Made by a program: the position numbers and the translations under genes
The notes under the pieces: generated by a model
Database searches by the model: none
Told to the model about the DNA's origin: nothing
The model's input: the letters and a program-made list of their open reading frames with translations, nothing else
Shown here: piece by piece, positions 143 through 61,263 of the stretch
Position numbering within the stretch: the first letter of the stretch is position 1
Layout: each line of letters opens with the position of its first letter
DNA from: Amoebophrya sp. A120
Lineage: Eukaryota; Protista; Dinoflagellata
Assembly: GCA_905178155.1 (NCBI GenBank)
Contig: CAJINV010000002.1
Coordinates: 5,870,476-5,934,475, forward strand
Direction: 5' to 3'
DNA length: 64,000 nt

Positions 143-3100
143 TCAGACAAGCAAAACGTCCAAAAAGTGACACGCAGTTGACACGCAGTTGAGTCCAAAA
201 AGTGACACGCAGTTGACACGCAAAGTGACACGCAGTTGACCACCGTCGTGGTTGTTCCAGTCAATCGACTCCAAAGACCCCCGCGTACTGTAACTTCGGG
301 TGTTGGAGGCGGATGGATTCAACATGTGATATCCGCTGCCGTCGTGGTTCATCAGAGGGATAGCGCTTGTTTTGGTTCCATTCAAGGCCGCACTGTTATT
401 GTCCTGCACGTGCCACGTGAAACAGTTCTGATTCATCAACCTCGTCAAAGTTTTCGCGTCGCCAAAAACGGTGTCGTAGTCGCCCCGTAAATGGAGTTTT
501 ACCAAACTACTCGCAGTTCGCCGCAGTGGTAAATCTTCGCGTCTGGCTGTACTTATGCGCATCGCTGGGGCCCCGCCCCCCGCTGAAGTAGCAGACGCAT
601 TTTCACCTTCTACACCAGGAGCAGTGGCCGTAGTACCAGAAAAATTAACGGTGCTGTTGTTGGTTATGCTGCTCTGGTCGTCATTTTCACCGTCAACATC
701 TCGCCCGGTCGTGGGTTGTGTCGTCCCTAGCAATCTAGTTTTATTCTCCTCGTCATTGTAGTTTATCGATTTCTTGTCCATTTTGGTGGACAGCAATAAT
801 GCGCTTGAGGGCGTCATGGGAGCGGAGTTGGACTCCTTTTCATCTTCCTTTGCTCGTGTCGTTGTTTTTTCTTCGGCGTCATCTACAACTTCTTTATCAA
901 CATGGTCGCCATCTACTTCACTGGGATCTATGTCTCGATCCATATCCTCTTTATTCACTAAACCCGAGTTCGAGGAAATCTGCGAATTCCACCGTCTCGA
1001 CTGCGACGCCACGGAGTTATTTCCGGGAAACGGAAAGTGCACCTGCTCTTTGTAGAATGCCGTCGAGGAGTTCCCCGAGCTTCTCGTCCGGTCTAAGGGG
1101 TGAAAAGAGAGTAAAGGAGCTGGGTTGTTCATATTCTTGCTACTGTTCTTTGTGGTCTTCGTTCTTGTGCTTGCTGTGGTGCCACCGGTTACATCAACTT
1201 TCGTAGTCGTTGTGCAATGACGCGTTTCGTTCTCCAAGCTAGCGATCTCCTTCAAGTCCGACTCCAGCATCAGACTCCCGTGGTAGTATTCGTAATTTTC
1301 CCTCGTCGCCTGCCGTTGCAGCACCCCCCGGCCGGCTGTGCTGTTATTGCTGTTGTTCGTTCCCGCGGACTTGGTCGTGTTCGGTCGCGACTTTTGGATC
1401 GAGTACTCAATCCTGGTAGTCAGCTTCTTCCGTTGGTCTTTCCCGTAAAACTTCGGCAAGAACTTCAGCAGCCGGTGCTTCTGCTTCGGGGGTTCTGGCA
1501 CCAGGTCCTCTCCCGCGTCAGAGTCATTGTCCTGCTTTTGGCGTTGCGACGACGAAGATATTCTCGCTGAGGTGGACAATTTGGAATTCACAGAGGGTGA
1601 ATTCATCGTCGGATCACTGCCGCCCTTGATACCAATCTTCTGGTGGTATTGAAGAGAGAAAGCCGGGACGATAGGGTGTTGGTTTATTTCGATGCGTCTA
1701 GTAGTAACATGCTGGTGCGCGATTTTGCCACGCAAAGAAATTAAAGCGCTGCACACAATACTTGGTTTGCAGCTGGTGAGGAAAAAGAAAAGGGCATGGA
1801 CTTGAATTATGCTATATGCATGAAGTGAAGCGCGTCACGTCTCTCATAACATACTGGTAGAATTAATAGTACGCCTTTCATGCATATTCCGTCACATCTA
1901 GACACTTCGAGTCAGGTGCCGACCCTGCTTAATAATCACCATTTTGATACAGCAGATTGACAGTCGGTCTGCTCGCACTTCCGCTTCGACTGTCTTTCAA
2001 ATTGAAACTTATCCCACGAAAAAAGTGTTACAGTTACACATTTGTAGTGAATGCAGCAACACAAATTTCTCTGCATGTTGAGAGAGAAAACTTGTAGTGC
2101 AGAAATTCTAGGGGAAAACACCTATGAAACGAGGCTTCTATGCATATCCGGCATGACAGAGCTTGCCTGTCTTGCTTGGCCTGCAACGCAATGTGTAACT
2201 GTAACACTTTTTTCTTGCGATAAAACTCGACGCGTTTCCACTACCCGAGCTTCGGCTCGGCGACTCGGTCATAACACTGGTGTTGGCATTCCTGCTTGTC
2301 CTCTCGTCCGGTTGTTGACCATCAGCATCCTCATGATCCCGGTCGGCTCGATCATTTACCGCGAACTTCGCAGCACTTATATTGTTCTCTTTCTCTTTGT
2401 CACCACCTTGTAGTAAGCCACCGTACAGGAACTTCTGTTTCTTTTTGCTCGCCACGGAGCTGGAGGAGTTGGACCCGTACTTCTTGTTCGTCGACACATT
2501 CTCCGGCCAGTTGTTCATAATTCGGTAGAAGTCGTACTCGATGCGGCCTCGCGATTTCGTCCGCCCCTCCGCCTGCTCCTTTTCCGACAACCCAATCCAG
2601 GGTTTGTATACCTTCCCGTCGTTGGTGTACATGCAGAGCTTCGCGTCCTGTTTCTGAAAGTAGCCGTCGTTGGACAGGTTCCGGTGGTGACTGCCAGAAG
2701 AAGTGTTTTGGTGAAGACGGTGATTCATTTTTGGGTGGAACAACGCGGATCGGTCTCCCGATCCCGACGAGTTCCTTCCGCTCGCCGCGAGCGACGATTT
2801 AATATTGTGATCACGCTGTTGTACTGTCCCATCCAGGCCGATCGGAAGCAACGGCGGATCGGTCTGGGTTCTTCGGGTCAGAAGGTTTTTCACGACTTCG
2901 TTGTCATCTCTCCCCAGGATCTCTTCCACGTGGTACTCGTATTCCGCCTGCTCGTATCAAGTGCAAAAAAGTCTGGACCTGGAAGAATGCATGTTTGTCA
3001 TGCTTGTCTGCCATGACTCTTAAATCTGTCATGCACGTTACCCAAGAGCTAGATTTTTTCTGTGATGCAGAAACGCAGTTTGTCATGCAGAATAGGCAAC

Positions 3101-3862
3101 ACCTAGAAGCTCAGAAACTTGTGATGCTGAGCCAGCATTTGTGGCCTCATCATGAAACGCCACCCAGCATCGAAAGTTTCCAGACCCAGACATTTTTACA
3201 TTTGATAGCTCGTACCCGTGCCCGGCGACGACATCCAGCTTCTGGTACTGCCGTTCCTCGTATCAAATGCAAAAATGTCTGGGTCTGGAAAGTTGGAACT
3301 TGTGATGCTAACTTTGGACTCTAAAAAAATCTGTATTGCATGACCAGCAAGAGGAGCCATATTTGTGCTACGCGAGGAGGGCATTTGTCATTCGGAAATG
3401 GCATCAGGAAGCTTTCCAAAAATCTGTGATGCTGGGTCATGCATTACAAGCATCATGGGTCATGCTAGACAAGCATGACAAGCCTTCCATTCTTCCAGAC
3501 CCAGACATTTTTACATTTGATACCTCGACAATGACCTCATCGGAGACTTCGCGCTCCTTCAACTCTAGCTGGGATTCTAACAGTAGGTCGGTCGTGAGCG
3601 AGAGGGAGGTGGTGAAATCTTTGGTCGGCCGGCGCGCTTCAAGCACCGTGTTGGAGAAGTGCGCGGCTTTCTGTTTCGAGGAGGTGCTGCTGGAGGTGTT
3701 GAGTGGAGGGGATTTGGAGGAGGTGTTGTCAGGAGCATCTCCTTGCTCAATACCTCCGCCGCAGTCTGTTTTTTCGGCGAGCTGCCGAGTCTCTGGGTCG
3801 TCGGTCGCTGCGGTGCTGGTCCCGCGACCGAGGGGGAGCTTTTTAGCGGGGCTGGTGGACAT
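143..3862 (-). CDS. Multi-exon low-complexity (Ser/Thr/Asn-rich) hypothetical protein; true 3' end uncertain and may lie outside the window
   Basis: ORFs 3437-3862, 2138-2929 and 143-1756 join in frame after removing elements 3261-3522, 2955-3207, 2010-2222 (each plus 5 nt) and a GT-AG intron 1773-1950: ...EVIVE-ERQYQKLDVVAGHGYE-QAEYEYHVEEILGRDD...GNASSF-NLKDSRSG... No recognisable domain. Confidence 0.7.
158..240. repeat. Short tandem array of G(T)TGACACGCA units with a GTCCAAAAAGTGACACGCAGTTGACACGCA duplication
   Basis: Directly visible; probably intronic, since the ORF 143-1756 translation becomes repetitive here. Confidence 0.75.
1773..1950 (-). other. Canonical GT-AG intron (predicted)
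   Basis: Donor ct|gtatcaa; pyrimidine tract and acceptor ttttctttttcctcaccag|c; 178 nt joins the frames. Confidence 0.55.
2010..2222. mobile_element. Introner / MITE-like intron, TIR family 'TATC-GAAAAAAGTGTTACAG'
   Basis: ~33-bp TIR (tatcccacgaaaaaagtgttacagttacacatt / aatgtgtaactgtaacacttttttcttgcgata); perfect 5-bp TSD AAACT; removal leaves an open frame. Confidence 0.9.
2955..3207. mobile_element. Introner, TIR family 1 (TATCAAATGCAAAAATGTCTGGGTCTGGAA)
   Basis: ~30-bp TIR; perfect TSD GCTCG (2950-2954 and 3208-3212); removal restores frame; no GT-AG pair possible. Confidence 0.92.
3261..3522. mobile_element. Introner, TIR family 1, opposite orientation to 2955-3207
   Basis: ~30-bp TIR; perfect TSD CCTCG; TSD plus TAT end gives a canonical gag|GTATC...ACGAG|gaa intron on the minus strand. 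Confidence 0.92.
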
Positions 3863-6220: not shown

Positions 6221-9200
6221 TCACACGAACCCGTTGATTTTGACCACAAAACCGCAACTCGCAGGAATTTCGATCATCTCCGACCGGGCGGTGTGGATCA
6301 AACTTTTGTCCACCTTTTCCTTGATCTCGAGCTGGAGTTTTTCGTCCGGTGAGATGTTTTTGTTTTCGATGAAGATCGTGTCGTACAGATCCATCCCCGT
6401 TTCGTAGATCGCCCCGTCGAACATCCGGGCGGACTTCAGCCACAGCTTCACCAACACGGGGATGTACCCGTGGTTCTGCACCTCGATGCCGTCCTTCGGC
6501 CCGCCCAGGTGGATGCTGATCCCGCAATCTAGCCGGGCCAGCGTGTGAATGGACGTCCGGCTCGCATCCACCGTGGCGACGACTCCCTTCTCCAAGTAGA
6601 ACTTCAAGTGGCATTTCAGGTATTCCTCCTCCTCCGGCTGGTAATTCTCGTCGTCTTCCGGCTCGGGAATCACGAGTTTCTGCTCCTTTTCCTCCTCGTT
6701 CTTCGGGGAATTGGAGGTTTCCGTGTCGGTTTTCGAGGTGGGTTGCTCGTTTTGAAGATTCTGATTCATCTCGTTCAGATCCTTCTCCACGTCCGCGGTC
6801 TGCTTCGTTGGGCTCTTGGTGTTCGGACTGGACAAGTGGCTGCTGTTGTTGTCGTCGTCCTCATTGTCCAGGCCTAAGAGTCCCAACCCGTCCCCATCGA
6901 GACTGTGGTGAATTAACCCACCATACCCGTACTCATCGCCACCATCTAGTGTCGTGCCTGCAGCTCCGTAGTCAAGACTCGTCCCGGGATCATCGACATT
7001 TTCTGTCCCGTCATCGTTTCTGCTACTATTCTGTCCGTCCCGCAATAAATCAGTTGATTTCTCCACCGCGGGACTCCACTTTTCCTCAGAGTCGTGGGAA
7101 TCCACGGAGTTACGATGGTGCACGACCCCACCGGGCGTGATGTGCGTGTCCGTCTGCTTGCTGCTGGACGGGGTGGCTTTGTTGTTTGTCAATTTGGAGG
7201 ATTTGTTCTTCGGCGATAAATCGTTATCTGGCGATCTGATTGCGCTGTCGTCGACTGCCTTGGAGGCAGATTCGTTGTTATTATTTGCGGTTTGTTTTGA
7301 AGAGGTATTGGAAGGAGATTTCACCATGTTCTGATCGGCCACTTCGTCGGGTACTACACCAGCGGTGGTTTCTTCTGGATTGTTCATTTTGCTGTGCGCG
7401 GGACCGCCACTTCTACTGCTACTTTCGAAGTGGTTCGCGTCGACATCCGTTATCTCCGTGTTCACAATCTGTACCACTTCCGGTGGCTGCAGAGCCAGTT
7501 GCTGCTCCTTTTTCAACCTGCGTTCCGCCTCCCTTTCCGCCAACAGCGCCTTGATCTCCGCCTTTTTTTCCGCGATGTACGCGTTCCGGTTCTCTTTACT
7601 CGCCACGAACGGCACCTGGAGACACAACACCTGCCCAGGCCACAACAAAATCTCCTCGCTGTTCATCCGGCTCGCGGACGTGATCCCGCCGAGGACCAAT
7701 TTTGTCATCGGGTGGGCCGACATTACTAACCCGACCGTTTTCTGCACAATCCCGTCGTAAGATTCAAACCGAAGCGTGACGCACCGGCAGGTTTGGTTGC
7801 AGATCAGCACGCGCCGCCGCGTCCCGTGAAGGTAGGCGGAAATCTGGGACTCAAACTCGCTGTGCCACCCGTTCATCTGATCGAGGCCCGTGTCGTAGCT
7901 ACCCTGCGCGAGCCCCCGGCTGACCAGGGTGTGCGGCGCCGTCAAACAGTACCCGCGGCGCTCGATCACCTGCACGAGCTGCTGCTCGGGAGACGTCGGT
8001 GGGCGCTTTGCAGTTTGCTGGTTCTTCTGCTTGCTGCCGGTGTTCAATGCCACTTCACCCTCGGGGCTTTTATTTGCAACTGCGGCTTTGCTCTTACCTG
8101 CAGGGGACGTAGTTGTCGTTGCTGCGTCCTCAGTCACCTCCTCAACCGCGTCCTCGAAGGTGTCACTCCTCAGTTTTTCCATATCAATCGGCACGACGTT
8201 CATCTGCTCTATCCTCGTTTCCACGACCGGACAGACTCGGTTCCGCAACGATTCGACCGTTTGGTCCTCCAACAGCAAAAACCGCATGTCGTCGCTCATC
8301 CACAGCATCACATTCGAAATCGCCCACACCTCCAACGCGCCGGGCAGCGGCATCACCAGCCCGGCGGCGAAACCGAGAACCGAGTGCTGCACCTTCCCCA
8401 GGAAGGACTCCCCGGGGATGTGGGACAAATTCGCGTGCAGCTGCTGCTGCTTCACCTCTTGCTGTAGTTGTGCGGGGGAAGAGGAGTTGGCGTCTCCTTG
8501 TTCTTGCGCGGTCGTCTGATCTTCAGGGTCATTTTGAAGAATCTGGTCTCCCCTGGGGGAAAAAACATTTGGGTTCGACAATCCGTCGTCGCTGTTCTCA
8601 TCATCGCTTTGTTTGTTTCCGTTTTTCCGATCGCGGACAACGGCGCGATTGCTTTTCTGCTCGCCATTTTCCCCCGCCACAGGATGCGCGCCGTTGCTAT
8701 CCAGCCCCGCGAGACCCGCCCCGTCGCCGGAACTGGAATTCGCGCGGATAATGTTGCTCGCGTCGTCGTGTTATCCTGTGCAAAAGTTCTTGTATCGGAG
8801 ACTCGTAGCAAGTGATTGCGATTTTGCATCACAATAAACGTGTTGGTGTTCATCTTTACCTTAATCAATCTGCATGAGAAATTTCATTTTGTCTCTGTGA
8901 TTCAATCACGACCACTAAGCCACCTAATACGATAGAACTTTTTGCAGCAATGCATATGTATTCCATGATTTGGTCTTCTGGCACGACCGCAGAGGGGGAT
9001 CTTTGCACTGCGATGGCGGGAACCACTGAAGTTGTGGCTCCGCTAGACACTAGGTCGGTATTCAGCTGCAACAGATTGTTTTGCTCTGTCTCGCTGTTAC
9101 TGGTATTTATCCCTACTAGCTCTTTCGAGCTCTGTTTTGACAAGTTCGTCTTCTCACTCACCACCCCCTTCGCCACGGCCGTGCTGTAGGTTTTGTTCGT

Positions 9201-44694: not shown

Positions 44695-47600
44695 TCACTG
44701 ACTCTGCACGTGATAGAGGCGGAAATCGTTCGCGTTCTGGTAGTATCAAGTGCAAAAGTGTCTGGGTCTGGAAGAGTCGTGCTGTTTTTGCATGACACAG
44801 AAGGTCTGGCATGGAAGCTCTAGCATCACAGGTTTCGAGAAGCTTCCGCATCGCAATGCCGAACCCGCACGACAAGCCCCCCATTTTGGTTCCAGAAAGT
44901 GAGCAGCTTTTGCTGCCTATGCATGAGAGATTTCTCTGTGTGCTGAAATGCGCATCACAAGTTTGTATTCTTCCAGACCCAGACATATTTGCAATCCATA
45001 GGTAGTTGCTCGCCGAACCATAGCTGTTGACGTGCGCCGCCTGCTATCAAATGCAAATATGTCTGGGTCTGGGAGATTGCGAGATTTGTCATGCTAGTGT
45101 GGCATGACTCTGAACTCTGTATTGCGTGGCCGCGAAGAGCTCTTCTTGTCTATCATGAAAAAACGCGGTTTCTCATGCGGAGTACGGAACTCAGAACCAC
45201 GAAAAAACTTGTCATGCTGGGCAGCGCATTACAGTGCGCTGACTATTCCCTTTCTTGCATCACAAGTTTCCAGACCCAGACATATTTGCGATCCGTACCT
45301 GCCCGGCAATAGGCTCCTGGACCATGTTCCTGCGCCGGTCGTCATCCTTGGGCGGCTTCCAGCACAGGGCGGCGACCAGGACGAAACAGAGGCAGATTTC
45401 CAACAGCGTCAGAAAGACCAGGCTATGCGTTGCAAATTATATCGAATTAGTTTTTCTTGGGTCGTCGGGAACGTAAATGGAAATTGTGACAACCACCGCC
45501 ACCACACATATGGTTATAATAATCTGTCTCACAAAAACAAATGAAAATACCAACCTGTCAGCACGGTAGAGCAACAAAGGCTCTGCTCTGGTGCCGCGCA
45601 GAGACAGAGGGGTTCTTATGCAGGATAGGCATCTTGATCTTTTTCAAATAGTAGTCGCGCTCAACCTGGAACAAAATTGCAGCTCTGCTATGCATTGCGG
45701 ACATCGTGCTGTGGTGTGTGATTGAAAACCTGCATGACAAGAAATCGCTTACAATTAATTTTTTCGACCCAAACACCGATATTTGCGACGACGTGTCTGA
45801 CGTGATACAGGTTGACCGTAATTTGCGACGTTTGCTTGTGCAAAACCGCACGGAAAACTTCGGTATCAAGTGCAAAGGTATCGCACTGCGTATAAATCGC
45901 AACATAAATCAATGCTTTCAGAAGGGAAAATCATGGAGATGCTCGTGCCTCTATATGCTGGTTCAGGTAAGAGTTACAATTTAGTACAGTTACGATACTT
46001 TATTTCCTGCAGTGCATATTCAGGGGTGATCGTCACGTCGGGCGCAAGCTCCACGAGCAGCACGTCGGTGAGAAATCGCTGATAAACTTCCGCGAAGTTG
46101 TCCGCCAGGCAGTCCGTGTAAGTTTGAAGGAAGTCCAACATCGAGACGCCTTGGTATCAGGTAGAAAAATAAAACCAAGCACAATACCGTCGCTCTCTGC
46201 GAATTCTAGTACGCTCCTTTGCTATCTTCAAATACGGCTAGATGATTGCTATTCCTTTTTTTTCCAGATGGATTGCATCAGTGCATCGTCGTACGTGCCC
46301 GATAGTATAATGCCTTTTCTTCTTCATGTGCGCATGACAGCAGCAGCGACGGTAATGAGGGAAGTCCTTTTCTACACCATATAAACCAGATGCGCTGTGA
46401 TGGTGAGAAGAAGATTAGGTTCTGCATGATTCGTCTATGTTTTCATCGCAATTCCACATTATGGAAGATGTGCATCGAAATCGATTTTGCACTTTCTTGA
46501 AGATCTTTGACCGTGTAGTTGTGCCACCGACTGTTACACGACCTTGTTTTGATGTTAAAAATCGAACGGATGAACAGGAGGTGCTGCGCAATGGTATATT
46601 TATAAATTGAAATTGCATCAATTAAACTTGGTTGTACGTAGATCCCACTCCCTACGTAGATCACGAGCAGCACGAAGACGAAGGGAGCAGCCTTTTTCAT
46701 CTTGGCGGACGCGGATCCAACCAACGCGCAGACAGTCATGACGAGGAAAAGCAAGGCCGCCCACTTGAGTGCTGTGGTGATTTCTCGGAGCAGAATCTCA
46801 ATGGGCTTGGACAGCACCTCCTCGTGGAGCCAGGGCGTCAGCTCCGCCGCATTACACGTGTCGCTGAACTTATCGTGAGAAAAAAGCGGCTCACTGTAAA
46901 GTAAGGATTTTGCACGTTTTGCATTACAACTTCCTTACATATGACAAAGCAAACTTACCATGCGTACTTCCTAAGGGAAAACACGCTGAGAAACCCAATG
47001 TCTTGCATGTGTAGCAAGACAAATGAGTATGCGTTGCATTCTTCTATGCATCACAAGTTTATGTTTACAGTGAAACAGTTTTTTCTTACGATAGAACCGA
47101 TTGAGTTCACTCGCGACGTGGTACTGTTCCCACTTTTATGCACCGCAAATATGTCGTCACGTGGGTCTGGGAAAAGAATATTACGACCAAGGATCTGTAT
47201 AAATAGTGCGCGTTTCGAACGACGCCGAAAACTGTCATGCACGAAGCGGGTTTGCAATTGCATCATGCAGAAGCAGATGGACCACGAATTCTATATTTAT
47301 CATATGCAGGTAAGTACGCAGTGTGTACTACCCTTCAAAAAATTTGTGATGCTTGGACAGGTTACTGGAATTCGTTATCGTTTCTTCGGTGTCACCGGGA
47401 GTTGCGACGGACTAGCGACCAGACCTTGACATATTTGCCGTGGATAACTTTTCGATGATCACCGCGTAACTCACAGTGGTCAAGCACAAGACCGAGAACA
47501 AAGCACCGGCCACAGAGTATGGGACTCTCAAGCGGTACATTGTTCGCTGTTACATGATTATTTCTTGTCATGCAGAATCACTGTCGCACTTGTTCACACG

Positions 47601-47889
47601 CCCGCGCTATTTCGCATGGCAAGTAGAAGTTCTCCACCTACTAACTAGCATTGGAGTCACCTACTCCGACTTCAGTGCCCAATCTATGATCATGCAAGGA
47701 AGACGGCGCGCAAGTTCCCCAGTTACAGTTTCCCTTTTGCTGGTCCTGCATAGCAATAACACGTAAAATCAGCGACCACTGTAACGTTTGAGAGTTGTTC
47801 ACCCATACAGAGACGCTATGGAAACAGCCAAAGGCGCCCAGGAAGAGGTGCCGCCAGTCGGCATTGGGATTGCAGCAACAGAGCACCAT
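44695..47889 (-). CDS. Multi-pass (about 4 TM) membrane protein of unknown family, paralog A, ~11 exons
   Basis: Reconstruction: MVLCCCNPNADWRHLFLGAFGCFHSVSVAGALFSVLCLTTVSYAVIIEKWEQYHVASELNRFSDTCNAAELTPWLHEEVLSKPIEILLREITTALKWAALLFLVMTVCALVGSASAKMKKAAPFVFVLLVIYVGSGIY-RIWFSVSMLDFLQTYTDCLADNF...TITPEVFRAVLHK...YYLKKIKILVFLTLLEICLCFVLVAALCWK...YHVQSQ*. Frame stays open across nine element removals and one GT-AG intron. Confidence 0.75.
44744..45000. mobile_element. Introner, TIR family 1
   Basis: TIR; perfect TSD GGTAG; closely similar along its length to 50118-50379 and 56819-57076. Confidence 0.92.
45045..45297. mobile_element. Introner, TIR family 1 (2955-like)
   Basis: TIR (right end decayed to GTA); perfect TSD CCTGC; can be read as GT-AG on the minus strand. 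Confidence 0.9.
45424..45627. mobile_element. Decayed introner, probably spliced as GC-AG (45423-45630)
   Basis: Ends tatgcgttgcaaa and ttatgcaggata; the frame requires element+4, which matches at|GCCTATC...CATAG|c. Confidence 0.65.
45689..45807. mobile_element. Highly decayed introner candidate
   Basis: tatgcattgc...gtgata ends, internal gcatgacaa; +5 restores frame; alternative GT-AG intron 45666-45816 also fits. Confidence 0.5.
45864..46018. mobile_element. Introner, 59582-like family
   Basis: tatcaagtgcaaaggtatcg / tacgatactttatttcctgcagtgcata; TSD TTCGG/TTCAG; joins TITPE to VFRAVL. Confidence 0.82.
46155..46381. mobile_element. Decayed introner candidate
   Basis: tatcaggtagaaaa / ttttctacaccata IR; TSD lost; +5 restores frame. 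Confidence 0.55.
46395..46637 (-). other. Canonical GT-AG intron, position shared with paralog B
   Basis: tac|gtacaa...ctaatcttcttctcaccatcacag|cgc (branch-like CTAAT plus pyrimidine tract); removes the in-frame TGA at 46443. Confidence 0.65.
46871..47093. mobile_element. Introner, 2010-like family
   Basis: tatcgtgagaaaaaagcggctcactgtaaa / tttacagtgaaacagttttttcttacgata; TSD GAACT/GAACC; joins LNRF to SDTCNA. Confidence 0.85.
47137..47446. mobile_element. Introner, diverged family 1
   Basis: tatgcaccgcaaatatgtc...ggtctgg / ccagacc...gacatatttgccgtggata; perfect TSD ACTTT. Confidence 0.87.
47518..47807. mobile_element. Introner, 'TATGGGACTCTCAA' family
   Basis: IR with an indel; perfect TSD CAGAG; end homologous to 56498-56739; joins FHSVS to VAGALF. 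Confidence 0.87.
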
Positions 47890-49369: not shown

Positions 49370-52044
49370 TCAGGACCGGTCCTTGACGTGCGGATGCGTC
49401 CAGTACCCTTTAATATCATTTCCATGTGCAACAGCAGCACGAGCAGCTACTCCGCCTCCACCTGCGGGTCCGGCATGCTCCCTTACCGTGTGGGGAAATG
49501 CGTAGTACTGGTCCGGATGGCCTTGATGTTCAACCTGAGAAGTGGTGGATGAGTAAACCGTCGTCGTCGCGGCCGGAAGAGCTGCAGTGCCGCCAGCTTC
49601 ACTCGTCGTGCCGACAATCAGAGGCTCGCATTGCTCGAAAGTGGTCTGGTCTTGCACCACGGTGACGACTTGTTGATTCTGCTGATGACCATACCCGTAG
49701 TCGTAGTACTGGTGCACGTTCACGTCCTGCGGCTGATACCGCGCTCCGTGAAAATCATGCTGCTGTTGCGCCATAACAGGCTGGTGGACGAGAATGTTGG
49801 TTCCGTCCTGGCTGTATCCTGCGCAAAAGCACTATCGCACTCGTATTGTCAAAATTGCAAGCTTGTTGGTGTTCCATCGTGAAACTTGCCTTCTTTATTC
49901 CTGAAACGGAATGTTGACACATTCAATAATCCAGTTAGTCATCGATTTGGAATCTTCGGAACTACAACAACAAATTGTTCATACGTAGTTTACGATAGTT
50001 TGCAATGCGTAGGTCTCCGGCTTCAGGCAACTCCTTCCTGCCGCAGCACTTGGCCAAGAGCATAATCGGCACGGCCCAGACCAACCCCTGGGACAGAAAG
50101 TGCAGGAAGCCCCTACCTATCAAATGCAAAAATGTCTGGGTCTGGAAGAGTCATGCTGTTTTTGCCTGACGCAGAAGGTCTGGCATGCAAGCTCTAGCGC
50201 CACAGGCTTCCAGAAGCTTCCACTATGCTGACTCCGCATCACAAATCCGCCATTTTGGTGACAGAAAGTGGGCAGCTTTTGCTGCCTAAGCATGGGAATG
50301 GGATATTTTTCTGTGTTCTGAAATGCGCATCACAAGTTTGTTTGTATTCTTCCAGACCCAGACACTTTTGCAATTAATACTACCCCCCAAATGCCCGGGC
50401 TGGGCGAAGAATTCCAGGATGTACCGGGTTTCTTCGGTATATCAAAAGGAAAAATCCCCCCTCCCCATATCAAAGTGGAAATCTGTGACGCAGGATTTGC
50501 GTACACAAATCGGATTTGTCTTGCGGTGGAGGACTGCAGACAGACACAAAGCCCGGAAAGGCGTGGCTTGGGGTAGGTACTTAGCATGGCAGACGTCTGC
50601 CCTAGTAGCGTAGCAGCATTACAAATCGCCTGCGAAATCATGCAGCGGAAGCCCTGGCGTTGCTCTCTTGCAAGACAGACTCGATTTGTGGCCACAAATC
50701 AGCATCAAAAATTTTGAAAAGCACGCCTTTTCGATATGGGGAGGGAGAATTTTTCCTCACAATACGGTAGGCGTCAAATTTGCGGGAATGTGCATCCCAA
50801 ACAGAGCGGGCCCATTCGCGATAAACCAAGGGAGGACCACGTCCATAATGGTATCAAAGGAGTATTTGTCCGAGGCACAGGGCGCCCAAGCTTCGAGAAC
50901 TTTCGCAATCCACACGTACGCGAGAAAAATCTGATAGATTTTTTTACGTTTGGATGGTGAACACTTCATCTCACGAGTTTTATTCGCTCATATGTCAAAG
51001 GAAAACGACGCAAATGGCGTGACGTCGAGAGTAAGCAACATTCTACGCATGGCGTTACTGGTCTTCACTAGGTCTAGGTCGAGAGAAGATCGAGCGGAGC
51101 CATATTGCATCTAATTTATTACGTAAGAACAATGACATTATTCTTACCGTCACTCCCAGCGCGACGTAGAGCACCAGTAGAGCAAACACCGGCCACCAGG
51201 CTTTCTCCATTTTCCGACTGGGTTGTGAAAGTGCACAAATCCCCCTTTCGTGGTCCTAATTACGACTCCAGCAGCAGGAGACGCTGTTGCCTCTCAGGCC
51301 ATGCTGTAGTCCCATCTGCCACGCAAGAGCTACAAATTATGACTATGTCTTCTGTGGTTTCTGATGCTACTCAAGATCTCCTGCCCGAGTCAACGTCGAA
51401 ACGGGGCTAACAACAATTGACGAGTGGGACGACCACTAGTGGGAGTTCTTGTGCACTCTGATATACCCGCACCGACATTCGCGAAAACTGACATGATGAC
51501 GGAAACGGCGAAGCCCGCGCAGAGGAATTTTTGCAGCATAACGACGAGGGCGTGGCGGCTCTTCGACAAGACGTTGTTCCAGATTTGCGGCGTGATTTCC
51601 GAAACGTCGCAGTCGGCGTCGAAGTCCCGTATCACGTTGATCCAGGGGAATCTTCGGCCAGGAAAGTTGATGTGATCATGTGAGTTCTTTGTGAATCATG
51701 CGTGGCGGTGAATTAATATAATACCTTCTGCATGACAAACAAGTCGCTGAGCGCTTCGTCGACGTGCACGACAGCACTGAGACTAGCTCTACAAGAAGCT
51801 TCCATTCATCTTATCTCTTGCCCACATCGACGAAATTTTCTGCAACGCATACGTAAAACGACTGCGCGATCCTATTGCCGTCCAGCAACACCGTGCTGAG
51901 CAACGGTATGGAGAGGAAATGAAAACTGGTTTCGGTCGTTTTGGAAATGGGTTCTTGGGCACGAAAGCAAAACATCATGCTGCACATAACGTTTTGCCTG
52001 TCACTAGTACTAGTAGTAGTACTACTACGACGCCCGCAAGGCAC
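49370..52044 (-). CDS. Multi-pass membrane protein of unknown family, paralog B, ~7 exons; start codon uncertain
   Basis: ...FHFLSIPLL...RDFDADCDVSEITPQIWNNVLSKSRHALVVMLQKFLCAGFAVSVIMSVFANVGAGSRKMEKAWWPVFALLVLYVALGVT-IFLAYVWIAKVLEAWAPCASDKY...LTPTEETRYILEFF...GFLHFLSQGLVWAVPIMLLAKCCGRK...DQDGTNILVHQPVMAQQQ...; aligns by eye with paralog A. Confidence 0.75.
49815..50011. mobile_element. Decayed introner, 8772-like family
   Basis: tatcctgcgcaaaagcactatcg / tacgatagtttgcaatgcgta; +5 joins EAGD to QDGTNIL. Confidence 0.75.
50118..50379. mobile_element. Introner, TIR family 1
   Basis: TIR; perfect TSD CTACC; a GT-AG reading is possible. Confidence 0.92.
50440..50764. mobile_element. Introner, inverted homolog of 42043-42364
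   Basis: TIR; perfect TSD CGGTA; joins LTPT to EETRY. Confidence 0.92.
50931..51147 (-). other. Canonical GT-AG intron, position shared with paralog A
   Basis: acg|gtaaga...ctatcag|att, phase 0. Confidence 0.75.
51224..51463. mobile_element. Decayed introner
   Basis: tgtgaaagtgcacaa / ttgtgcactctgata IR; +5 gives VGAGSRKM, the same length as VGSASAKM in paralog A. Confidence 0.65.
51676..51852 (-). other. Intron with one introner-like end (GT-AG 51687-51852 or decayed element)
   Basis: tac|gtatgcgttgca end as at 25940 and 45424; internal gcatgacaa; both readings restore frame. Confidence 0.5.
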
Positions 52045-54516
52045 ATTAATAAAGCTGCTTTATCATGGTCTGCTGTAGTGTTTCGGCTTCGTGCAAGTAC
52101 CGGGTCCAACATGACAAACAAGTTTCCATTTGATTTCCATACGCCCCCACAGCAACAGGGCGGACAAGGCGTGGGAGAAGCCGAAGCACCCGATTAACAG
52201 GTGCCGGAAATCCGCCTTCGGGTTGCAGCAGCAGATACACATTTTCTCGGAGTTGGATTTTGTTTCGGAGGTTTGGAGTTGAAAAAAATTGTGTACTTAC
52301 TCAGAGTGTTATTCGTGTTTTTGTTGATGCTAGCTTTGAGTATCAAAGGAGAAAAGCCGTCACTTCGGCTTCGGTCACGAAATAAATTTATACTGAAAAG
52401 CAATGACACGCAGGGTTTAGAAGAGGAGGCCGATGAAACAACAAGTGGACGTCTTGCGACGTGCAGCTCAACGTTTCTCGAAGGTGATGTGGCAGTTCAA
52501 AACTAAGACTAACGATGAAGTAGTGGGACGCCAATCAATACCAGTTCGAGAAGAGTAGGCACTTCTTCATCCAACTATATGTCGCGACAACAAACACCGC
52601 TAGAAGCCGGCCAGAAAAAATAGAAAAGAGAAGACACTAGACATAGTGTTTCACATTGGTCTTGATGGTCGCACGCACGCACGGAGGATCGATCTCTGGT
52701 GTCTTTGTGCTAATTATATCGCGGATCGGCACAATCACAAGAAACAATACACCCATCAGATGCTTTATGCGTACAGCAACGGCAACTGGATCACAATCAT
52801 GATCACTTTGAACTGGCGAAACACGCGGCGACTATCTTCCATCTATGAGGGGATCCTCTTTCAATACACATTTTCGCGAGTCAGAGTCTGCGACATAGAT
52901 TGACTCCACACACGACACAGCCACACGGAAATAAGTGATAGCGCGGTCTTTCGCTTCTTTGTGACCATGGGGCAGCTGCTACCCTGCCCTCCTGCGAACA
53001 GGCACGCACGGGCCGTGGCGCCGGCCCGGGCCGGCAACTATCTAGCGCCAGCGGGATGGCACATAGGGGGGCAGGCAGACTGGCAGGGCCAAAGTGCTGG
53101 CGTGGCGGCGCTGCGACGATGGACGAACGGACGCCACGGACTTGGGCAGGCACCCACAAAACCAACGGGGCGGACGGGGCGGAGAGAAAGCCCCCACACC
53201 CAGGGCCTTCTTTTCCCCGTCCCGCGCGAAGCAAAGGCGGGTCTTGTCGTCCCTAAAGAAATGACGTCTATATTTTCCACCAAGTGGATCCCGACAGACT
53301 ATAAAAAGGATCGGCGACGACGCAGGCACGCGCGTCCTCTACCTTCGGCAACGTGTCGCCTTTCTGGCACGTCGACACTTCGCCGGCCGATTGTTTCGCC
53401 ACAATGCGGAAAAAAAAAACCGACCCGACCACAAGCACGGCCAGACTCTTTGGGCGTGATTCTTTGTCTTCCTCGCTCCACTTCCGGCAGCTGGCCGGCT
53501 GCCCCACATACAAGCAGGCACCCAACGGGGCCCCGCCCAAGCGCAGCGGGCGCGGCCGGCCTCCGGGAGGAGGCAGGCGCGCCGCGGGCGTGGCGGAGAG
53601 GAGCCGCGCCCGGGCCTCCGCCCAAGGTGCGACGCCGCCCGCCGCCCGCCCAAAGCGGCCCGGCGCGGGGGCGCCACTACAAGGCGGACCGCTGGCCCGC
53701 CCCGGGCGCCGGGCTCACTATCTGCCGGGCGGGGGGCCGGCGCTTTAGATGGGGGCGCCGCGCTCGCGCTGGGTTCACAAGTAGCCGGGTCCACACGGGG
53801 CTCGCGAGGTCGGTCGAGTGTGTGACAAACATTTGGCGGCGCAGGCGACTGCCTGCGCAGCGGTGCGACCAGGGGGCGCAAGCGACACCGGCCCGAGCGG
53901 GCTGCCGCCCAAGCGAGGCAGGCAGGCGGGCCCCCCCAGCAAGTCCAAAGGGCCTCAGCGCGCGCGCGGCCGGGCGCGCGCCCGCCGCTCTTGCCATTGG
54001 CGGCAAAGGTAGGCGCCCCGTTGCGCCCGGCTACGTTGCTCCAGTGATTACGGCCGGCGCCCCGCGTAATGAGCCGGCGGCTCGCACCACGCCCCGCCCC
54101 GAGCGGGGAATTGCAACACTGCCCGCGCCCTTGGAGAGCTGCCCAGCCGGCGCTTACAGGGGCGAGGCGCCACCGCCTTCGAGAGTTGGCACACTTACTC
54201 GCTTCGCCCTGGGTCTTTTTCGTTTATTATCACGTCGACACACCATTAGGATTCACATTCAGAACCTCATACACTCAACAAGAGCGAATAAGCTCGTTGT
54301 AGCAGGTCGGTCCGTATAACGTCTAAAAGAATTGAACAAATACTCCACCGAAGGGGCTGCGGTCTGGCGTCTTCTCTTCTGTTCATGTTCAGCATAATTT
54401 TTATATCCACTAGATCACTAGCACTACCATACTGGGCTTCAAAAAGTTTCCCCGTCGAGCTTCAAAAAGTTTTCCCGTCACACGTCCAAACTCATTTCAA
54501 CCCCCACAGCACTCTC

Positions 54517-55440: not shown

Positions 55441-56314
55441 AGCTAAAGCCTAGTACGTTTGCAGGAAAAAAAACAAAAAGGAAAAGTCGAAGTGATCAGG
55501 TAAGCATAGCACTGTGACACAAGGGGGAGGAAACACAACTCAACCTACCATAAAATTCGAACGAAAATAACATGGAATCTGTCCACCAACATCAGTTTTT
55601 CAGGGGTTTTTGCTCCGCGGAAAGATTTCGTATTTTCTGGTGTATGATCTTCTGGAAGGGTGCGAATAGCGCAAAAGCTCATTATCAAACCGCCGAAACC
55701 ACCAGCCGTAAAAGAGATCTTGGACACAACCCGTCCCGCAGGGAGCAAATTGAACAGTCGTACACCGCTTGTATCAGATAGAAAGACGACGTTGCACTCG
55801 CGTTCTTATCAATAGGGCTGGAATAAAAATGTCGCTTCATCTGTTCATTTGGTCATCGTGGCGGAATGAAGTTTGATGTTGAGAGGGACGAGGGTATAAA
55901 AACAAGCTGTCAACAATTTCTGACTGTCGCACGGGGCGGTGCGCAAAGAGGTCTAGCCTGAAAAGGAGGTTGTCGACAAAGTCGAAGCCCGGCTCGGGTA
56001 GGTAGTCGTAGTTCTATTGCAGCAGGTCTACCAGGCAGTCGGGGTTTTGTTGTTCATTCCCATTCGGTTTCACTCTCGGACGTTCATCTTTCGTAGAAAC
56101 CACCTACCAAAAGGGAAACAGTCGTTAGATTTGTTCAGCACAATTCGTCCTGCACCAAGTAGTCTTGGCACCACGACCCGCGTCCGCCGGTACTATTGTG
56201 GCCCTTACGACCACCACTCCCAAACACCATCTTCCAACCAGCTCCATCATCCGGCACTGCAGCAGCGTCCAGCAGCTACGCCAAAACGTTCGTCGCGACC
56301 AGCTCCTACCCTCT

Positions 56315-58260
56315 CTATTGCAAGTCCAGCACCGCCATCTTGTTCGCCAACTCATCCGCCGAAGACAGAAGTGAGTAAGGACACTCGTACTGCTTCATTA
56401 TGGTCGAAAATTTACTCTCTTCCGCCGGGAAGTCGTTCGCCAACGAGTGAGTGTACTTTGCAAGGACCACGGCGGCTTCGAACACCTCACAACTAATTAT
56501 GGCGTTCTCAAATGTTATATTCCCAACTGTATACATGATTTGTCATGCACAATGAGCATCAAGGTCCACACCTGGAAGCTACCTCGCATGACAAATTTAA
56601 GAACAGGAAGGGTCAAACAGCATGGGAATCTGTGCCGAATTTGTAATGCAAGAGTTGCGAGATTCGGCATTTCCCTGTTGCCATTCTTGCATCACAAATT
56701 CATGCAACAGTTGAGAATGTAACAATTGAGAGTCCCATACTAATTTCCACCACCTCGGTGAACTCGAAGTAGTGCGTTGTTGCCGAGTTTTTCGCGGTTT
56801 GGATCTTGTAGCACACGTTATCAAATGCAAATATGTCTGGGTCTGGATCTGGAAGAGTCATGCTGTTTTTGCATGACACAGAAGGTCTTGCATGGAAGCC
56901 CTAGCATCACAGGTTTCGAGAAGGCTCCGCAATGCCTAATCCGCATCACAAATCCCCCATTTCGGTGGCAGAAAGTGGGCAACTTTTGCTGTCTATGCAT
57001 GAGAGATTTGTGTGAGTTCTGAAATGCGCATCGCAAGTTTGCACTCTTCCAGACCCAGACATATCTGCATTTGATACACGTCCGCCAAATCCGACTCGTG
57101 GGCCTGGTTCAGGGCTTTCCGTAAACTCGCGTCGGAAGGACGCATGCGGGCGAAGGTCGACGGCGACTTGAAAGCAAGAGGGATTACCTGAATTTTATCA
57201 ACAGGCCGTTTTGATAGCATCTTTTGGTCAACAAGCGGTCAAGCTGCATCGAGGTCATGATTTCCAACAGGACTTCTACACTCAGCATGATGACATCCAC
57301 ATTACCTTCTAAAGGCAGAAACACACCATTTTTTACCACGTCTTCCCAGCTTTCCCCGGAATCCTCCTCGTCCAAATCGTCTGGATTAGGTTTGATTTTC
57401 AGCAACAACTTCTTTTCTCTCGTATTTGACTTCTCCTCGTCTAACACCAGCCACACATCCGCCTTGCCCAAATGCTCGCTGTTTGAACCTTTCCCACTTG
57501 GAGGCCCTTTCTGCTCCCAGAGCTCGCCGCAACAGAGCAGACAACTCGTACACCTGCCGAATAAGAACTCCTGTAATAACCGCTTTGCCTTGTTGTAAAT
57601 GGTCGTCGTCACGCTATTGGAGTACGCAAACGGCGCACCCTGCTGGACGCGTTTACAGAGTTGCGGCTGCACGGAGAGGGTTTGCAAACCGAGGTTGAGT
57701 AGAGAGATCACCGCATTGAGCTTGGGCAGCATCTCGGCGATCCGCTCTCGCCTGTCCTTCCCGTCTTTCTTCGTCTTTAGCCACTTCGTCCACGATTCTT
57801 TCGAATCGGGCCGCTCGTCGTCCTCATCCGAGCCAATGTCGAGAATCTCCTCCACCTTGCGGATCTGGAAACGGATCAGCTTGGTACCTGATAGATACGA
57901 TAGGTTTACGTTCATACTCGGTTCGAAATTTCGCACAGAAGAACAAGCTGCGGATAGTACTTGAAATTTTTCACCCTCACAACATCAAAAACAACAAGAA
58001 AAACATTTATCTTGATCATCACGCAGCGCTGTAAAATATCAGAGAAAAATACTCGGCAGCAAGAGCGGCAACGCCTCCTCTCTTATCAGTAGTTTCTCCG
58101 CAACCTGGACTGGGATTGTCAAGGCTTCCAAGGTCTTCCAGAGCACATATCCCTCCTCCTCCACGCCGTTGAAGGATTGCAGGAAGTCGATCGCCCGTTT
58201 GGTCCCGGTGGCCACCTTAAAAATCGCCCCGGCCGCAGCGGAGACACCGAACATCGCCAT
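56315..58260 (-). CDS. Hypothetical protein with N-terminal helical domain, 5 exons
   Basis: ORF pieces join through GT-AG introns 57888-58052 and 57188-57336 and introners 56819-57076 and 56498-56739: ...ESDLADV-CYKIQTAK...FTEVVEIS-CEVFEAAV... Confidence 0.75.
56498..56739. mobile_element. Introner, 'TATGGGACTCTCAA' family
   Basis: TIR tatggcgttctcaaatgttatattc / gaatgtaacaattgagagtcccata; perfect TSD CTAAT. Confidence 0.9.
56819..57076. mobile_element. Introner, TIR family 1
   Basis: TIR; perfect TSD CACGT. Confidence 0.92.
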
Positions 58261-58809: not shown

Positions 58810-61263
58810 TCATTTTGTTTTCTTTTTCTTCCGTGCACTAGCATTTTTGTTGTTTTTGCTTCCAGGAGAGGCAGTTTCCTGCAGAAGTAGATCCTCGTCT
58901 TTCATTTTAGCTGAAATCGGGCTTGGTAAGAAACGACCCGCGTGTTCAATTTGTCGCTTTTTTGCAGACGATGAAGATGCAGCAGAAGTCCCACCTCCGG
59001 GTGTACTAGTTGCGAGGTAGTGAACCCCCGACCTGGCGCTGCTGACGAAAGGCGAATGATGATCTTCCAGGCCTTCCTCTTCCTCGTCCCGGTCGCCTGA
59101 AAAAAGAGCTCCGTCGTCGCTTTCTGGACCCCCGCGTGCTGTTCCTGTCTTCCCAACGTTCTTGTGTCCCTTTCCCTCTGCTCCGACGTGCAACAAGCTT
59201 CCGCCGAGAATTGCGAAGACTAACCCGAATAAGTGGTACCAACCGAAGACTTTCGGGAAGATAACGTAGGACAAAGCGAAGGTTATCATCTTCCTGCACC
59301 CACAAATCGCGTTTGTTCTCGCCGCGTCGTACTCCTTCGTGATTTTAAAAATGATTCGCAAGCCCCAGAAGGACAGGAAATTGTCGAGGAACATCAGAAT
59401 CAAAACCTTGTTCCCAGTTTGCATCGGAATTCCGAGTCTGAAAATTGCCGGGTTCGAGTCGTGCGGCTTCGCGTAAAAGAAATTCTGCAATCTCGCGAGG
59501 TAACTAGATGAACTGTTTTGGAGGTATGTTGAATCTCCTGTCGCGACGAGGCCGGAAAGCAAGTAGTCCTTTCGGACTTCGTATGCAATGCAAAAGCATC
59601 GTACTAGTATAAATTGCATTACAAATTGGCTTAGCATTACAAATTGAATTTGTATTGCGGATTTGCCTTAACAGAAAGATCTGTAATGCATAAATGCAAT
59701 TAGTACGAGTACGATACTTTTCTTGCAGTGCATACTTCGACGCCGAGAAAATCGTCCCAGCTGAACCCTGCAAGGGTCAAAATATCCAAGAAAAAAACTG
59801 TGTTAGTTTAACTTTCTTTGGTTGGCAGCGTCACAAATTTGCTCTACATGACGGAGAAAACCTGTCATGCGCGGCTTGTAAGGGAAAACACACATGAAAA
59901 GAGGACTTCATGGTTGTCTGGCATGACAGGTGTAACTCCGTTGCATGTTCTGCATTACAGAGTTTTTACACTTACACAGATTTTTTCTTGCATACGACAC
60001 CCGCTCACTGTACCAGTAGTACCAGTTCTGGAACTCATTTGCGAACAGCATGGTGTAGCAGACCAGCAACACAAATCCGACGGAGTACTGGATCATCATC
60101 AGCAGATCTACTTCGCGACCTTTGGTAGAAGTAGTAGGTTGCGGCGCACGATGTTGACTTGCGGCTCGTGTAGCAAAAGGAAAAGCTTGTGTCTGTTTCC
60201 TCTTCTGCTGCAAAAACACCTGCTGAATGTTGACGCCAACGGATGCGCAGCAGATGTTCAACAGCATTAAGGCCAGGCCGTAGATGGAAAACCTGGGGGA
60301 CTCGAACCGCTCCCCAACTCCAAACACGGTGAGACCGAAGAAAACAGATAGACTGCCGATGTATTCCTGAGACGTGATAATCTTCTTGTTCGCTTCAACA
60401 TTCATCTCATCGCTCTGTCGCCGTCCAGATGAAGAAAGGACCATCCCGTACAACCGCCTTCCCAGCAGAATGCAGGGGACTTTTGCGCTCTTGCACATGG
60501 CTCCGAAGGTGAAAGATAAATGTTCGAAGGCGGAGGTCCCAGCGCCATGCGAAATCATCAGTAAAACGCCGGAGAGGAAGGCAGGGTCGTGCTCTTCGAC
60601 TTGTAAGATCGAAGATGGAACTCGTGTTGCAGTTGTAGAAGAGGGCGAGCTCTGCTGATTTTTTGCTAATGTATGTGTAGTGAGTTGTGTTGACATCTTC
60701 CCTTGATGTTGTATCAAATTTTTGACGAATGTCAGCCTGTTCCAGACGGATTTTCGCACCGCGTAGTTCCATTCATCCCAAAAACCTCGGTTGTTCCAAT
60801 TGCACAACGGGATCAACAAAACGTACAAACCGAACTCAAACAAGCAGTAGACCCACCCGAACCGGAAACCGTCGTGTTGGAAAACCGCTTCGGTAAGCAG
60901 CGCCGCTTGCCCGTGGAAGAGAAACACGATGAACGCGAGTTGCAGTAAACGAACAGTGCGCTGGTGGTGGGTTGATGGTGCTGCAACAGCTGCTAAAGAA
61001 TGAGAGCAGCTCTGCTTGGCAGTTTGCGTAGTGAGCGATTTTGTACTAGCTTTATTAGGCGGAAAAAAAGCCATGTTTTTGCTGCTAGCTGCACCTCCGG
61101 TGGGGGTCTGCTCGCGTCTTCTTGAGCGGTGCACCTGTCTTGCGCCACCGGTTGTACCAGTCGTGTTTTTCGCAGTAATTTGAGTTGCCGGGGAGGAGGC
61201 TGAGGCGCCCTGTGGCGTACCGCGCTTGCGCGCTTTCCCGTGGCCGTTGCGGGTAGTGGACAT
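58810..61263 (-). CDS. UAA-family nucleotide-sugar/PAPS transporter (SLC35B3/PAPST2-like), 3 exons
   Basis: Multiple TM helices; FRFGW, MCKSAKVPCILLG, SPRFSIYGLAL, KEYDAA...RKMITFALSYVIFPKVFGWYHLFGL. Joined through 59783-59994 and 59582-59734 (each +5): SERVS-TLAGFSWDDFLGVE-VRKDYLL. Confidence 0.85.
59582..59734. mobile_element. Introner, 'TATGCAATGCAAAAGCATCGTACT' family
   Basis: TIR; perfect TSD CTTCG. Confidence 0.9.
59783..59994. mobile_element. Introner, 2010-like family
   Basis: tatccaagaaaaaaactgtgt / acacagattttttcttgcata; TSD CAAAA/CGACA decayed; +5 restores frame. Confidence 0.8.

What the first reader, a model, noticed from the sequence alone, without database searches (positions are those of the whole stretch)
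2010..59994. About 27 TAT...ATA inverted-repeat elements with 5-bp target duplications act as non-canonical introns under an 'element + 5 nt' rule
Seen: 14 elements have perfect 5-bp TSDs (AAACT, GCTCG, CCTCG, CCGTA, TTGAA, GGTAG, CCTGC, ACTTT, CAGAG, CTACC, CGGTA, CTAAT, CACGT, CTTCG). Removing element plus one TSD reopens the frame in recognisable proteins (FN3, ABHD, SLC35B, NTF2-like). Only 3 of the 14 can be read as GT-AG. Established: inverted-repeat introners with non-canonical splice sites are reported in Amoebophrya, so the general class is probably known. Inference: these are non-autonomous DNA transposons removed precisely from RNA. A 5-bp TSD with TAT termini fits no superfamily I can name (Transib has 5-bp TSDs but CAC ends), and no transposase is present in the window.
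Basis: partly seen in the sequence, partly recalled or inferred. Interest (0 to 1): 0.85.

Follow-up and report, generated by a model that had tools for sequence, protein, structure and literature searches.

The report
Amoebophrya hairpin introners, fixed cut offset
Genes of the marine parasite Amoebophrya are interrupted by short hairpin-shaped mobile elements, already described in print, that are missing from its transcripts as the element plus five bases, and the cut likely falls at one fixed offset from the hairpin ends rather than at the usual GT-AG splice signals.

Summary
Window exons match deposited Amoebophrya sp. A120 proteins at 100%. The ends fit the A120 introner consensus (TAT, 7 nt, AAA) of Farhat et al. 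2021. I count 28 elements, 14 with perfect 5-bp duplications. Removing element + 5 nt reproduces three deposited proteins letter for letter (16 of 16 elements), and RNA-like contigs support three more. A 5-bp TSD with TA termini in A120 is also in print, filed as Ginger-like. Possibly new: in 9 elements with decayed duplications, the only offset all allow is 1 nt before TAT and 4 nt after ATA; one junction is fixed at nucleotide level. One family is removed in both orientations. Published 'variable' splice-site tallies are roughly what an aligner sliding across a 5-bp duplication would give. Against: one window only, one deposited model reads through an element, one candidate breaks the +5 rule, and the paper's figures were not seen. 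The scan noted similar hairpin introns in other protists. Verdict: known system, testable refinement.

The parts
2010..2222 (-). element, perfect TSD; predicted intron 2006-2223
   Evidence: near 3' end of ORF, frame test not discriminating
2955..3207 (-). element, perfect TSD
   Evidence: +5 joins frames of 159/267 codons
3261..3522 (-). element, perfect TSD, GT-AG at the (1,4) offset; reverse orientation to 44744/56819
8772..8956 (-). decayed element, TSD 3/5, in FN3 gene
   Evidence: +5 joins 1065/848 codons
14507..14672 (-). element, TSD 4/5, in FN3 gene
19882..20067 (-). decayed element in DMFA2_C-domain gene
   Evidence: (+5 needed for frame)
25702..25863 (-). element, TSD 4/5, reverse orientation to 59582
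   Evidence: frame test not discriminating
25940..26308 (-). decayed element, TSD 1/5, in alpha/beta hydrolase gene; deposited model P0003 reads into it unspliced
39636..39915 (-). element, perfect TSD
   Evidence: 126/681 codons
42043..42364 (-). element, perfect TSD; 327 nt missing from contig of X1; 88% identical to 50440 in reverse orientation
44744..45000 (-). element, perfect TSD, gene P0002
45045..45297 (-). element, perfect TSD, ends GTA, GT-AG at (1,4), gene P0002
45424..45807 (-). decayed element, TSD 4/5, gene P0002
45864..46018 (-). decayed element, TSD 4/5, gene P0002
46155..46381 (-). decayed element, TSD 0/5; intron 46151-46382 (AT..AA) fixed uniquely at 1 nt before TAT, 4 nt after ATA
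   Evidence: table 5c
46383..46394 (-). 12-nt micro-exon between that element and canonical intron 46395-46637
   Evidence: table 5c
46871..47093 (-). element, TSD 4/5, gene P0002
47137..47446 (-). element, perfect TSD, gene P0002
47518..47807 (-). element, perfect TSD, gene P0002
49815..50011 (-). decayed element, TSD 2/5, ends GTA, gene P0004; offsets 0-2 allowed
50118..50379 (-). element, perfect TSD, gene P0004
50440..50764 (-). element, perfect TSD, gene P0004; reverse copy of the 42043 family
51224..51463 (-). decayed element (left end TGT), gene P0004; offsets 0-2 allowed
51652..51851 (-). decayed element, left end uncertain, gene P0004; intron starts 1 or 2 nt before TAT
51907..52141 (-). 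element, TSD 1/5, gene P0004; offsets 1-3 allowed
56498..56739 (-). element, perfect TSD; with 56819, 510 nt missing from an X1 contig (both elements + 10)
56819..57076 (-). element, perfect TSD
59582..59734 (-). element, perfect TSD, gene P0001 (UAA transporter)
59783..59994 (-). element, TSD 3/5, gene P0001; offsets 0-1 allowed
44695..47889 (-). host gene P0002 (270 aa), 8 elements + 1 GT-AG intron
49370..52242 (-). host gene P0004 (388 aa), tandem paralog of P0002, 6 elements + 1 GT-AG intron
58810..61263 (-). host gene P0001 (692 aa), 2 elements

Best explanation
These are the Amoebophrya A120 introner elements: short hairpin-ended elements in coding sequence, flanked by a 5-bp duplication, that are missing from transcript-derived sequences as the element plus five bases; they are likely non-autonomous DNA transposons, likely cut at a fixed offset from their ends by an altered major spliceosome. 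Steps: (1) Inferred: a DDE transposase or integrase acting in trans inserts the element in either orientation and duplicates 5 bp. (2) Shown for 19 of 28 elements: removal of element + 5 nt. This takes out one duplication's worth of sequence, so a new insertion would leave the protein unchanged (inference). (3) Shown at nucleotide level for 1 element and the only offset shared by 9 informative ones: the intron starts 1 nt before TAT and ends 4 nt after ATA. The element thus supplies intron positions +2 U and +3 A, as in canonical GUA donors. The first base and the last two bases come from the target and vary freely. (4) Inferred: the signal is the symmetric TIR (terminal triplet, A/U run, long stem), since one family is removed in both orientations. 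(5) Inferred, least certain: the cutter is the U2-type spliceosome with relaxed end recognition.
For: Identity. +5 rule: (three proteins reproduced; in every per-element scan only totals of 5 worked); with arithmetic (327 nt at 42043; 510 nt at 56498+56819). X1 behaves as spliced RNA: by the same arithmetic it also lacks GT-AG introns 42704-42905 and 57188-57336, and table 5c skips 46395-46637. X5 contigs run into the elements (table 8). Offset: allowed sets are 46155 {1}, 59783 {0,1}, 49815 {0-2}, 51224 {0-2}, 51652 {1,2}, 51907 {1-3}, 45424 and 46871 {0-4}, 45864 {0-5}. The chance that 1 lies in all eight sets other than 46155 is 0.0096. Orientation: 42043 versus 50440, 88% identical and reversed, both in minus-strand genes, both supported as removed. 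Terminal pairs 1-2 are kept in 25 of 25 examined, even where the TSD has decayed (partly by selection of the set). Donor G in 14 of 27 against 0.30 background, with no mirror C excess. Spliceosome proteins are nearly complete in A120 (PMC7789003 section 10).
Against: One window, all genes on one strand. Eight of the nine offset sets rest on deposited gene models, not raw reads, and three of them give GT at offset 1, which a GT-favouring aligner could prefer. P0003 reads unspliced into element 25940, though that pipeline keeps the longest ORF. Candidate 21264-21498 needs +4 or +7. The left end of 51652 is assumed. The G excess (p=0.013) is post hoc, and published tallies fit better without it. 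Published tallies also fit a real mix of offsets, and Farhat et al. call the sites variable. U1 snRNA was not found in A120, and acceptors are AG in only 4 of 27, which weakens the spliceosome step. No transposase is known for these families.
Confidence: 0.6

Rival explanations
1. Same elements and the same fixed offset, but removed by a non-spliceosomal, structure-measuring endonuclease plus ligase (tRNA-splicing-like or euglenid-like).
For: Acceptor dinucleotides take 14 different values in 27. Orientation does not matter. Long terminal stems form in many copies. U1 snRNA was not detected. Euglenid nonconventional introns also use TIRs offset from the ends (review PMC11282704).
Against: The offset places U and A at intron +2 and +3, as in canonical donors, and G is in modest excess at +1. 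In several decayed copies the terminal triplets are unpaired in the predicted fold, yet removal is precise. No such enzyme was identified.
Confidence: 0.25
2. Length rule only: element + 5 nt is removed, but the offset varies among copies, as Farhat et al. describe; the (1,4) pattern here is local or an annotation effect.
For: Fig. [quoted passage not shown] Large families show about 5% GC, 5% GA and 26% AG ends in annotation, impossible under a literal pure offset 1.
Against: Those tallies are close to what consensus sliding over a perfect 5-bp TSD predicts (GT .28, GC .06, GA .03, AG .28, AC .23 against fam3 .26.05.06.26.20; AT is underpredicted.10 against .17). Offset 4 is excluded in 6 of 9 informative elements here and offset 5 in 8 of 9.
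Confidence: 0.13
3. The elements are excised from DNA, or are gene-killing insertions in pseudogenes, rather than spliced from RNA.
For: X1 is only guessed to be RNA, and the two raw RNA runs did not cover these genes. One deposited model reads through an element.
Against: X1 contigs also lack GT-AG introns and have zero depth in 3 of 30 bins, whereas X5 covers all 30 and its contigs run into the elements. Eight removals give one intact 270-aa protein.
Confidence: 0.02

Closest known systems
Introner elements (IEs) of Amoebophrya sp. A120 (Farhat et al. 2021, PMC7789003)
   Same: Same organism; IR starts TAT, then seven nt, then three or more A; direct repeats (5 bp in the Fig. S19 legend); non-canonical ends; about 240 nt; 29,850 copies in 1,954 families reported.
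   Different: The text gives DRs of 3-5 nt and variable or unknown borders. Here one rule (5-bp TSD, +5 nt, offset 1/4) covers the informative copies. Figures 3 and S19-S25 were not seen and may already show it.
A120 introner family 38 and other A120 families (Gozashti et al. 2025, PMC12130899, Dataset file 8)
   Same: Family 38 is noted '5-bp TSD, TA/TA Termini', TIR DNA, Ginger; most of the 41 of 58 A120 rows seen are 'TIR DNA, Unknown'.
   Different: Family 38 is about 810 bp with ORFs related to Copia/Gypsy; the copies here are 153-384 nt. Sequence homology to family 38 was not tested.
IS3EU/GingerRoot and hAT5 DNA transposons (PMC10045372, PMC12730594)
   Same: IS3EU/GingerRoot has TA..TA termini (TAYGG in rust fungi); hAT5 makes 5-bp TSDs.
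   Different: IS3EU TSDs are usually 6 bp. No transposase is available here to place the elements.
Fritillaria borealis non-canonical MITE-derived introns; euglenid nonconventional introns (review PMC11282704; bioRxiv 2025.08.15.670264, abstract)
   Same: TIR + TSD elements spliced without GT-AG. Fritillaria uses an altered U2 spliceosome; euglenid stems are offset from the intron ends.
   Different: Fritillaria keeps preferred ends (AG-AC, AG-AT); euglenid stems start at +4 and end at -6. Here the stem starts at +2 and ends at -5, with free terminal bases.

Membership tests
Amoebophrya A120 introner elements | Host is Amoebophrya sp. A120 | tested here: met
   100% identity to named A120 proteins
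Amoebophrya A120 introner elements | IR begins TAT, seven variable nt, then three or more A | tested here: met
   T53/A52/T52 at positions 1-3 and A45/47/48 at 11-13 of 54 ends (the set was partly chosen by this motif); definition
Amoebophrya A120 introner elements | 3-5 nt direct repeat at the exon/intron boundary | tested here: met
   14 of 28 perfect 5-bp TSDs
Amoebophrya A120 introner elements | Spliced with non-GT-AG ends | tested here: met
   2 of 27 GT-AG at offset 1
Amoebophrya A120 introner elements | Repeated in families | tested here: met
   13 pairwise BLAST links among 25 elements; summed contig depth up to about 94,000 in element bins against 25-50 in most element-free bins in X5
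Non-autonomous TIR DNA transposon (MITE) | TIRs, fixed-length TSD, short, no transposase | tested here: met
Non-autonomous TIR DNA transposon (MITE) | Autonomous partner with the same ends | not testable with these tools
   no whole genome held
Non-autonomous TIR DNA transposon (MITE) | Empty sites in related sequences | tested here: inconclusive
   tandem paralogs share a canonical intron but no exact element site; alignment is weak and two pairs lie within 1-2 nt
IS3EU/GingerRoot | TA..TA termini | tested here: met
IS3EU/GingerRoot | 6-bp TSD (usual) | tested here: not met
   5 bp here; definition
IS3EU/GingerRoot, Ginger or hAT5 | Transposase phylogeny | not testable with these tools
   no transposase among 58 ORFs scanned
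hAT5 | 5-bp TSD | tested here: met
Transib/CMCT | CA..TG termini | tested here: not met
   TAY..RTA ends here; definition
U2-type spliceosomal intron | GT-AG ends | tested here: not met
   donors GT 14, CT 6, AT 5, TT 2; AG acceptor 4 of 27
U2-type spliceosomal intron | Lariat intermediate, snRNP dependence | not testable with these tools
   needs lariat sequencing or knockdown

The most novel reading that the evidence does not exclude
All A120 TAT..ATA introners follow one ruler: a 5-bp TSD and cuts 1 nt before and 4 nt after the TIR ends, in either orientation and whatever the terminal dinucleotides. The published diversity of Amoebophrya splice sites is then largely an alignment artefact, and tens of thousands of introns are removed by a machinery that reads transposon ends, so that any exonic insertion is silent.
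Probability: 0.55. Interest if true: 0.65.

Novelty: already known. Interest (0 to 1): 0.38.

Why it matters
The elements are not a discovery. How Amoebophrya splices them is a stated open question (PMC7789003 section 16). A fixed 1/4 offset would replace 'variable splice sites' with one substrate definition, show which positions the machinery can read (U+2, A+3, the A/U run, the stem), explain why insertion in either orientation is harmless, and give a rule for re-annotating the genome. It can be tested at once on existing RNA-seq using only copies whose two TSDs differ.

Tried and rejected
Whole-genome search: none is held, so no search for an autonomous element. Run search: no RNA holder listed on record. 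Raw RNA runs X9 and X10 had depth in 4 and 3 of 30 bins and did not cover the host genes, so they are uninformative. The joint table was filled by X5 repeat joints (15 shown, 840 not shown), so most X1 junctions were not seen at nucleotide level; raw-read junctions remain open. Table S4 of Farhat et al. (all nine top A120 classes have T second) looked like support for offset 1, but I rejected it as independent evidence because aligner sliding would also produce it. No ortholog from another strain was found in three homolog searches and one representative search; P0005 and P0006 were weak partial matches and were not used. My blind GT-AG model for two introns of P0004 was wrong: they are decayed elements. 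Lone TAT-N7-AAA hits such as 6104, 29435, 52341, 58037 and 61053 had no partner end in the scans and were not counted. One search timed out.
Full report
Observation. A scan for 5-bp direct repeats around TAT..ATA gave 24 raw hits, 13 of them with clear terminal inverted repeats, matching 13 of the 14 TSDs listed. The 14th (CCTGC) flanks 45045-45297, which ends in GTA. End scans and reading gave 25 elements totalling 6,195 nt. A deposited protein revealed two more decayed ones, at 51224-51463 and about 51652-51851, and a further one lies at 19882-20067. That makes 28, of which 14 have perfect TSDs and 24 have exact TAT..ATA ends. The strict pattern occurs 12 times against a shuffle mean of 0.07 (maximum 2 in 100). 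BLAST of the 25 elements against the window found no hit outside them at E 0.01. All 28 lie in minus-strand reading frames.

Identity. Single-exon queries returned proteins named Amoebophrya sp. A120 at 100% identity. Farhat et al. 2021 (PMC7789003; I read the abstract, sections 10, 11, 12, 16 and 25, passages, supplement figure legends and Table S4 rows, not the figures) state that A120 IR motifs start with TAT, then seven less-conserved nucleotides, then at least three A. They report 29,850 copies in 1,954 families and show 5-bp direct repeats in the Fig. S19 legend. The 54 ends of 27 elements here fit this, though the set was partly chosen by that motif. These are the published A120 introner elements.

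The +5 rule. Removing each element with 5 extra nt reproduces P0001 (2 elements), P0002 (8) and P0004 (6) letter for letter. In per-element scans over a wide range of trims, only totals of 5 worked; the left end of 51652 is assumed. The P0002 model was built before the protein was fetched. In one search the contigs of X1 behave as spliced RNA. Record 1 lacks 529 nt, which equals the GT-AG intron 42704-42905 (202) plus 327 (element 42043 + 5). Record 5 lacks 659 nt, which equals the intron 57188-57336 (149) plus 510 (two elements + 10) (arithmetic). Five of the 8 X1 pieces shown end at a left TSD. X5 contigs run into the elements. So 19 of 28 elements have outside support. Of the other 9, +5 joins long frames in 7, and 2 near gene ends are not discriminating. 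Against: P0003 is the unspliced ORF that runs into element 25940. The annotation pipeline keeps the longest ORF, and the unspliced ORF (1,376 aa) is longer than my spliced frame (1,367 codons from the previous stop). Candidate 21264-21498 needs +4 or +7 and can be read as a GT-AG intron 21258-21499 (read).

Offset. With a perfect TSD the junction cannot be placed. At 46155-46381 the TSD is gone, and X1 joins 46150 to 46638 through 12 letters equal to 46383-46394 (table 5c). This fixes the intron at 46151-46382: on the sense strand 1 nt before TAT and 4 nt after ATA, ends AT..AA. P0002 independently allows only this. The eight other elements with mismatched flanks in the three proteins allow sets that all contain offset 1; together with 46155 nothing else is shared. 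The chance for those eight is 0.0096 if offsets were random. At this offset donors are GT 14, CT 6, AT 5, TT 2, and acceptors take 14 values with AG in 4 of 27 (19882 not included). G at +1 exceeds background (14 of 27 against 0.30, p=0.013, post hoc) without a mirror C excess.

Orientation and age. 42043 and 50440 are 88% identical in opposite orientation; 3261 is reversed to 44744 and 56819, and 25702 to 59582. Both 42043 and 50440 are supported as removed, so the signal must lie in the symmetric ends (inference). The tandem paralogs P0002 and P0004 share a GT-AG intron at the same aligned position and phase but no exact element site. The alignment is weak, and two pairs lie within 1-2 nt in different phases. 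This suggests insertion after duplication.

Published variability. Farhat et al. call the splice sites variable relative to the hairpin. Gozashti et al. 2025 (PMC12130899; passages and 41 of 58 A120 rows of supplementary file 8; files 13-14 not searched) tally for family 3: GT .26, AT .17, GC .05, GA .06, AG .26, AC .20. A model in which an aligner slides over a perfect 5-bp TSD toward GT..AG or CT..AC gives .28.10.06.03.28.23, and splits placements equally between offsets 1 and 4. The tallies therefore need not show real variability, but they do not prove a fixed offset, and they fit better without a G excess. Four literature searches on Amoebophrya introns listed no paper whose passages I read states a fixed offset. 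[quoted passage not shown]

Mobility. No transposase family was hit in 58 of 149 window ORFs scanned, and Farhat et al. found none in A120. Gozashti et al. annotate A120 family 38 as '5-bp TSD, TA/TA Termini', Ginger, with ORFs related to Copia/Gypsy, while noting that it lacks standard Ginger ends. IS3EU/GingerRoot has TA..TA ends with usually 6-bp TSDs (PMC10045372, passages). hAT5 has 5-bp TSDs and the Transib clade CA..TG ends (PMC12730594, passages). My best guess is an integrase-like DDE enzyme; no superfamily can be assigned.

Mechanism. Most likely (about 0.6 overall) an altered U2-type spliceosome uses the TIR as its landmark. The offset supplies U+2 and A+3, the TIR's A run gives a U run some 15-18 nt before the 3' junction in either orientation, and the spliceosome proteins are nearly complete. 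Fritillaria offers a precedent (review PMC11282704, passages; bioRxiv 2025.08.15.670264, abstract only). Missing U1 and free acceptors keep an endonuclease-ligase route open (0.25). Four earlier scan notes describe similar hairpin introns in other protists; I did not check them and they did not change my reading.

Verdict. Already known as a system. The fixed 1/4 offset and the artefact reading of the published site diversity are a testable refinement from one window. Interest 0.38.

Noticed in passing
window 46383-46394: A 12-nt micro-exon sits between a decayed non-canonical element and a GT-AG intron and is kept in the X1 contig and in P0002.
   Followed up: yes
window 44695-52242: Two tandem paralogous membrane-protein genes with no Pfam hit (P0002, P0004) carry 14 elements. 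Two element sites lie within 1-2 nt of each other in the weak alignment, in different phases; in one pair the elements are clearly of different families (155 and 325 nt).
   Followed up: partly
window 2955-3522, 44744-45297, 46871-47807, 50118-50764, 56498-57076, 59582-59994: Elements often come in close pairs separated by only 43-79 nt of sequence.
   Followed up: no
window 21264-21498: Element-like 5' end with GT donor; the frame needs +4 or +7, and it can be read as GT-AG intron 21258-21499. Possibly an old element that has become canonical.
   Followed up: partly
window 50118-50149: In raw RNA run X9, 71-89 reads carry this TIR joined to flanks from another locus (an unspliced copy of the family), although X9 does not cover the window's genes.
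   Followed up: no
window 4380-5110: Visibly GC-rich stretch with inverted arms at 4611-4634 and 5053-5076, unlike the TAT elements; four ORFs there have no Pfam hit.
   Followed up: no
inside the elements, window 2010-59994: Short motifs of the GCATGACA/GCATCACA type recur inside unrelated families: 59 matches in 6,195 nt of elements against 10 in the rest of the window (motifs were chosen by eye). Possible transposase-binding sites.
   Followed up: partly
window 17364-22029, 23911-24336, 54520-55449: Other minus-strand genes: DMFA2_C domain, DnaJ domain and ubiquitin C-terminal hydrolase. Every Pfam-matched ORF in the window is on the minus strand.
   Followed up: no
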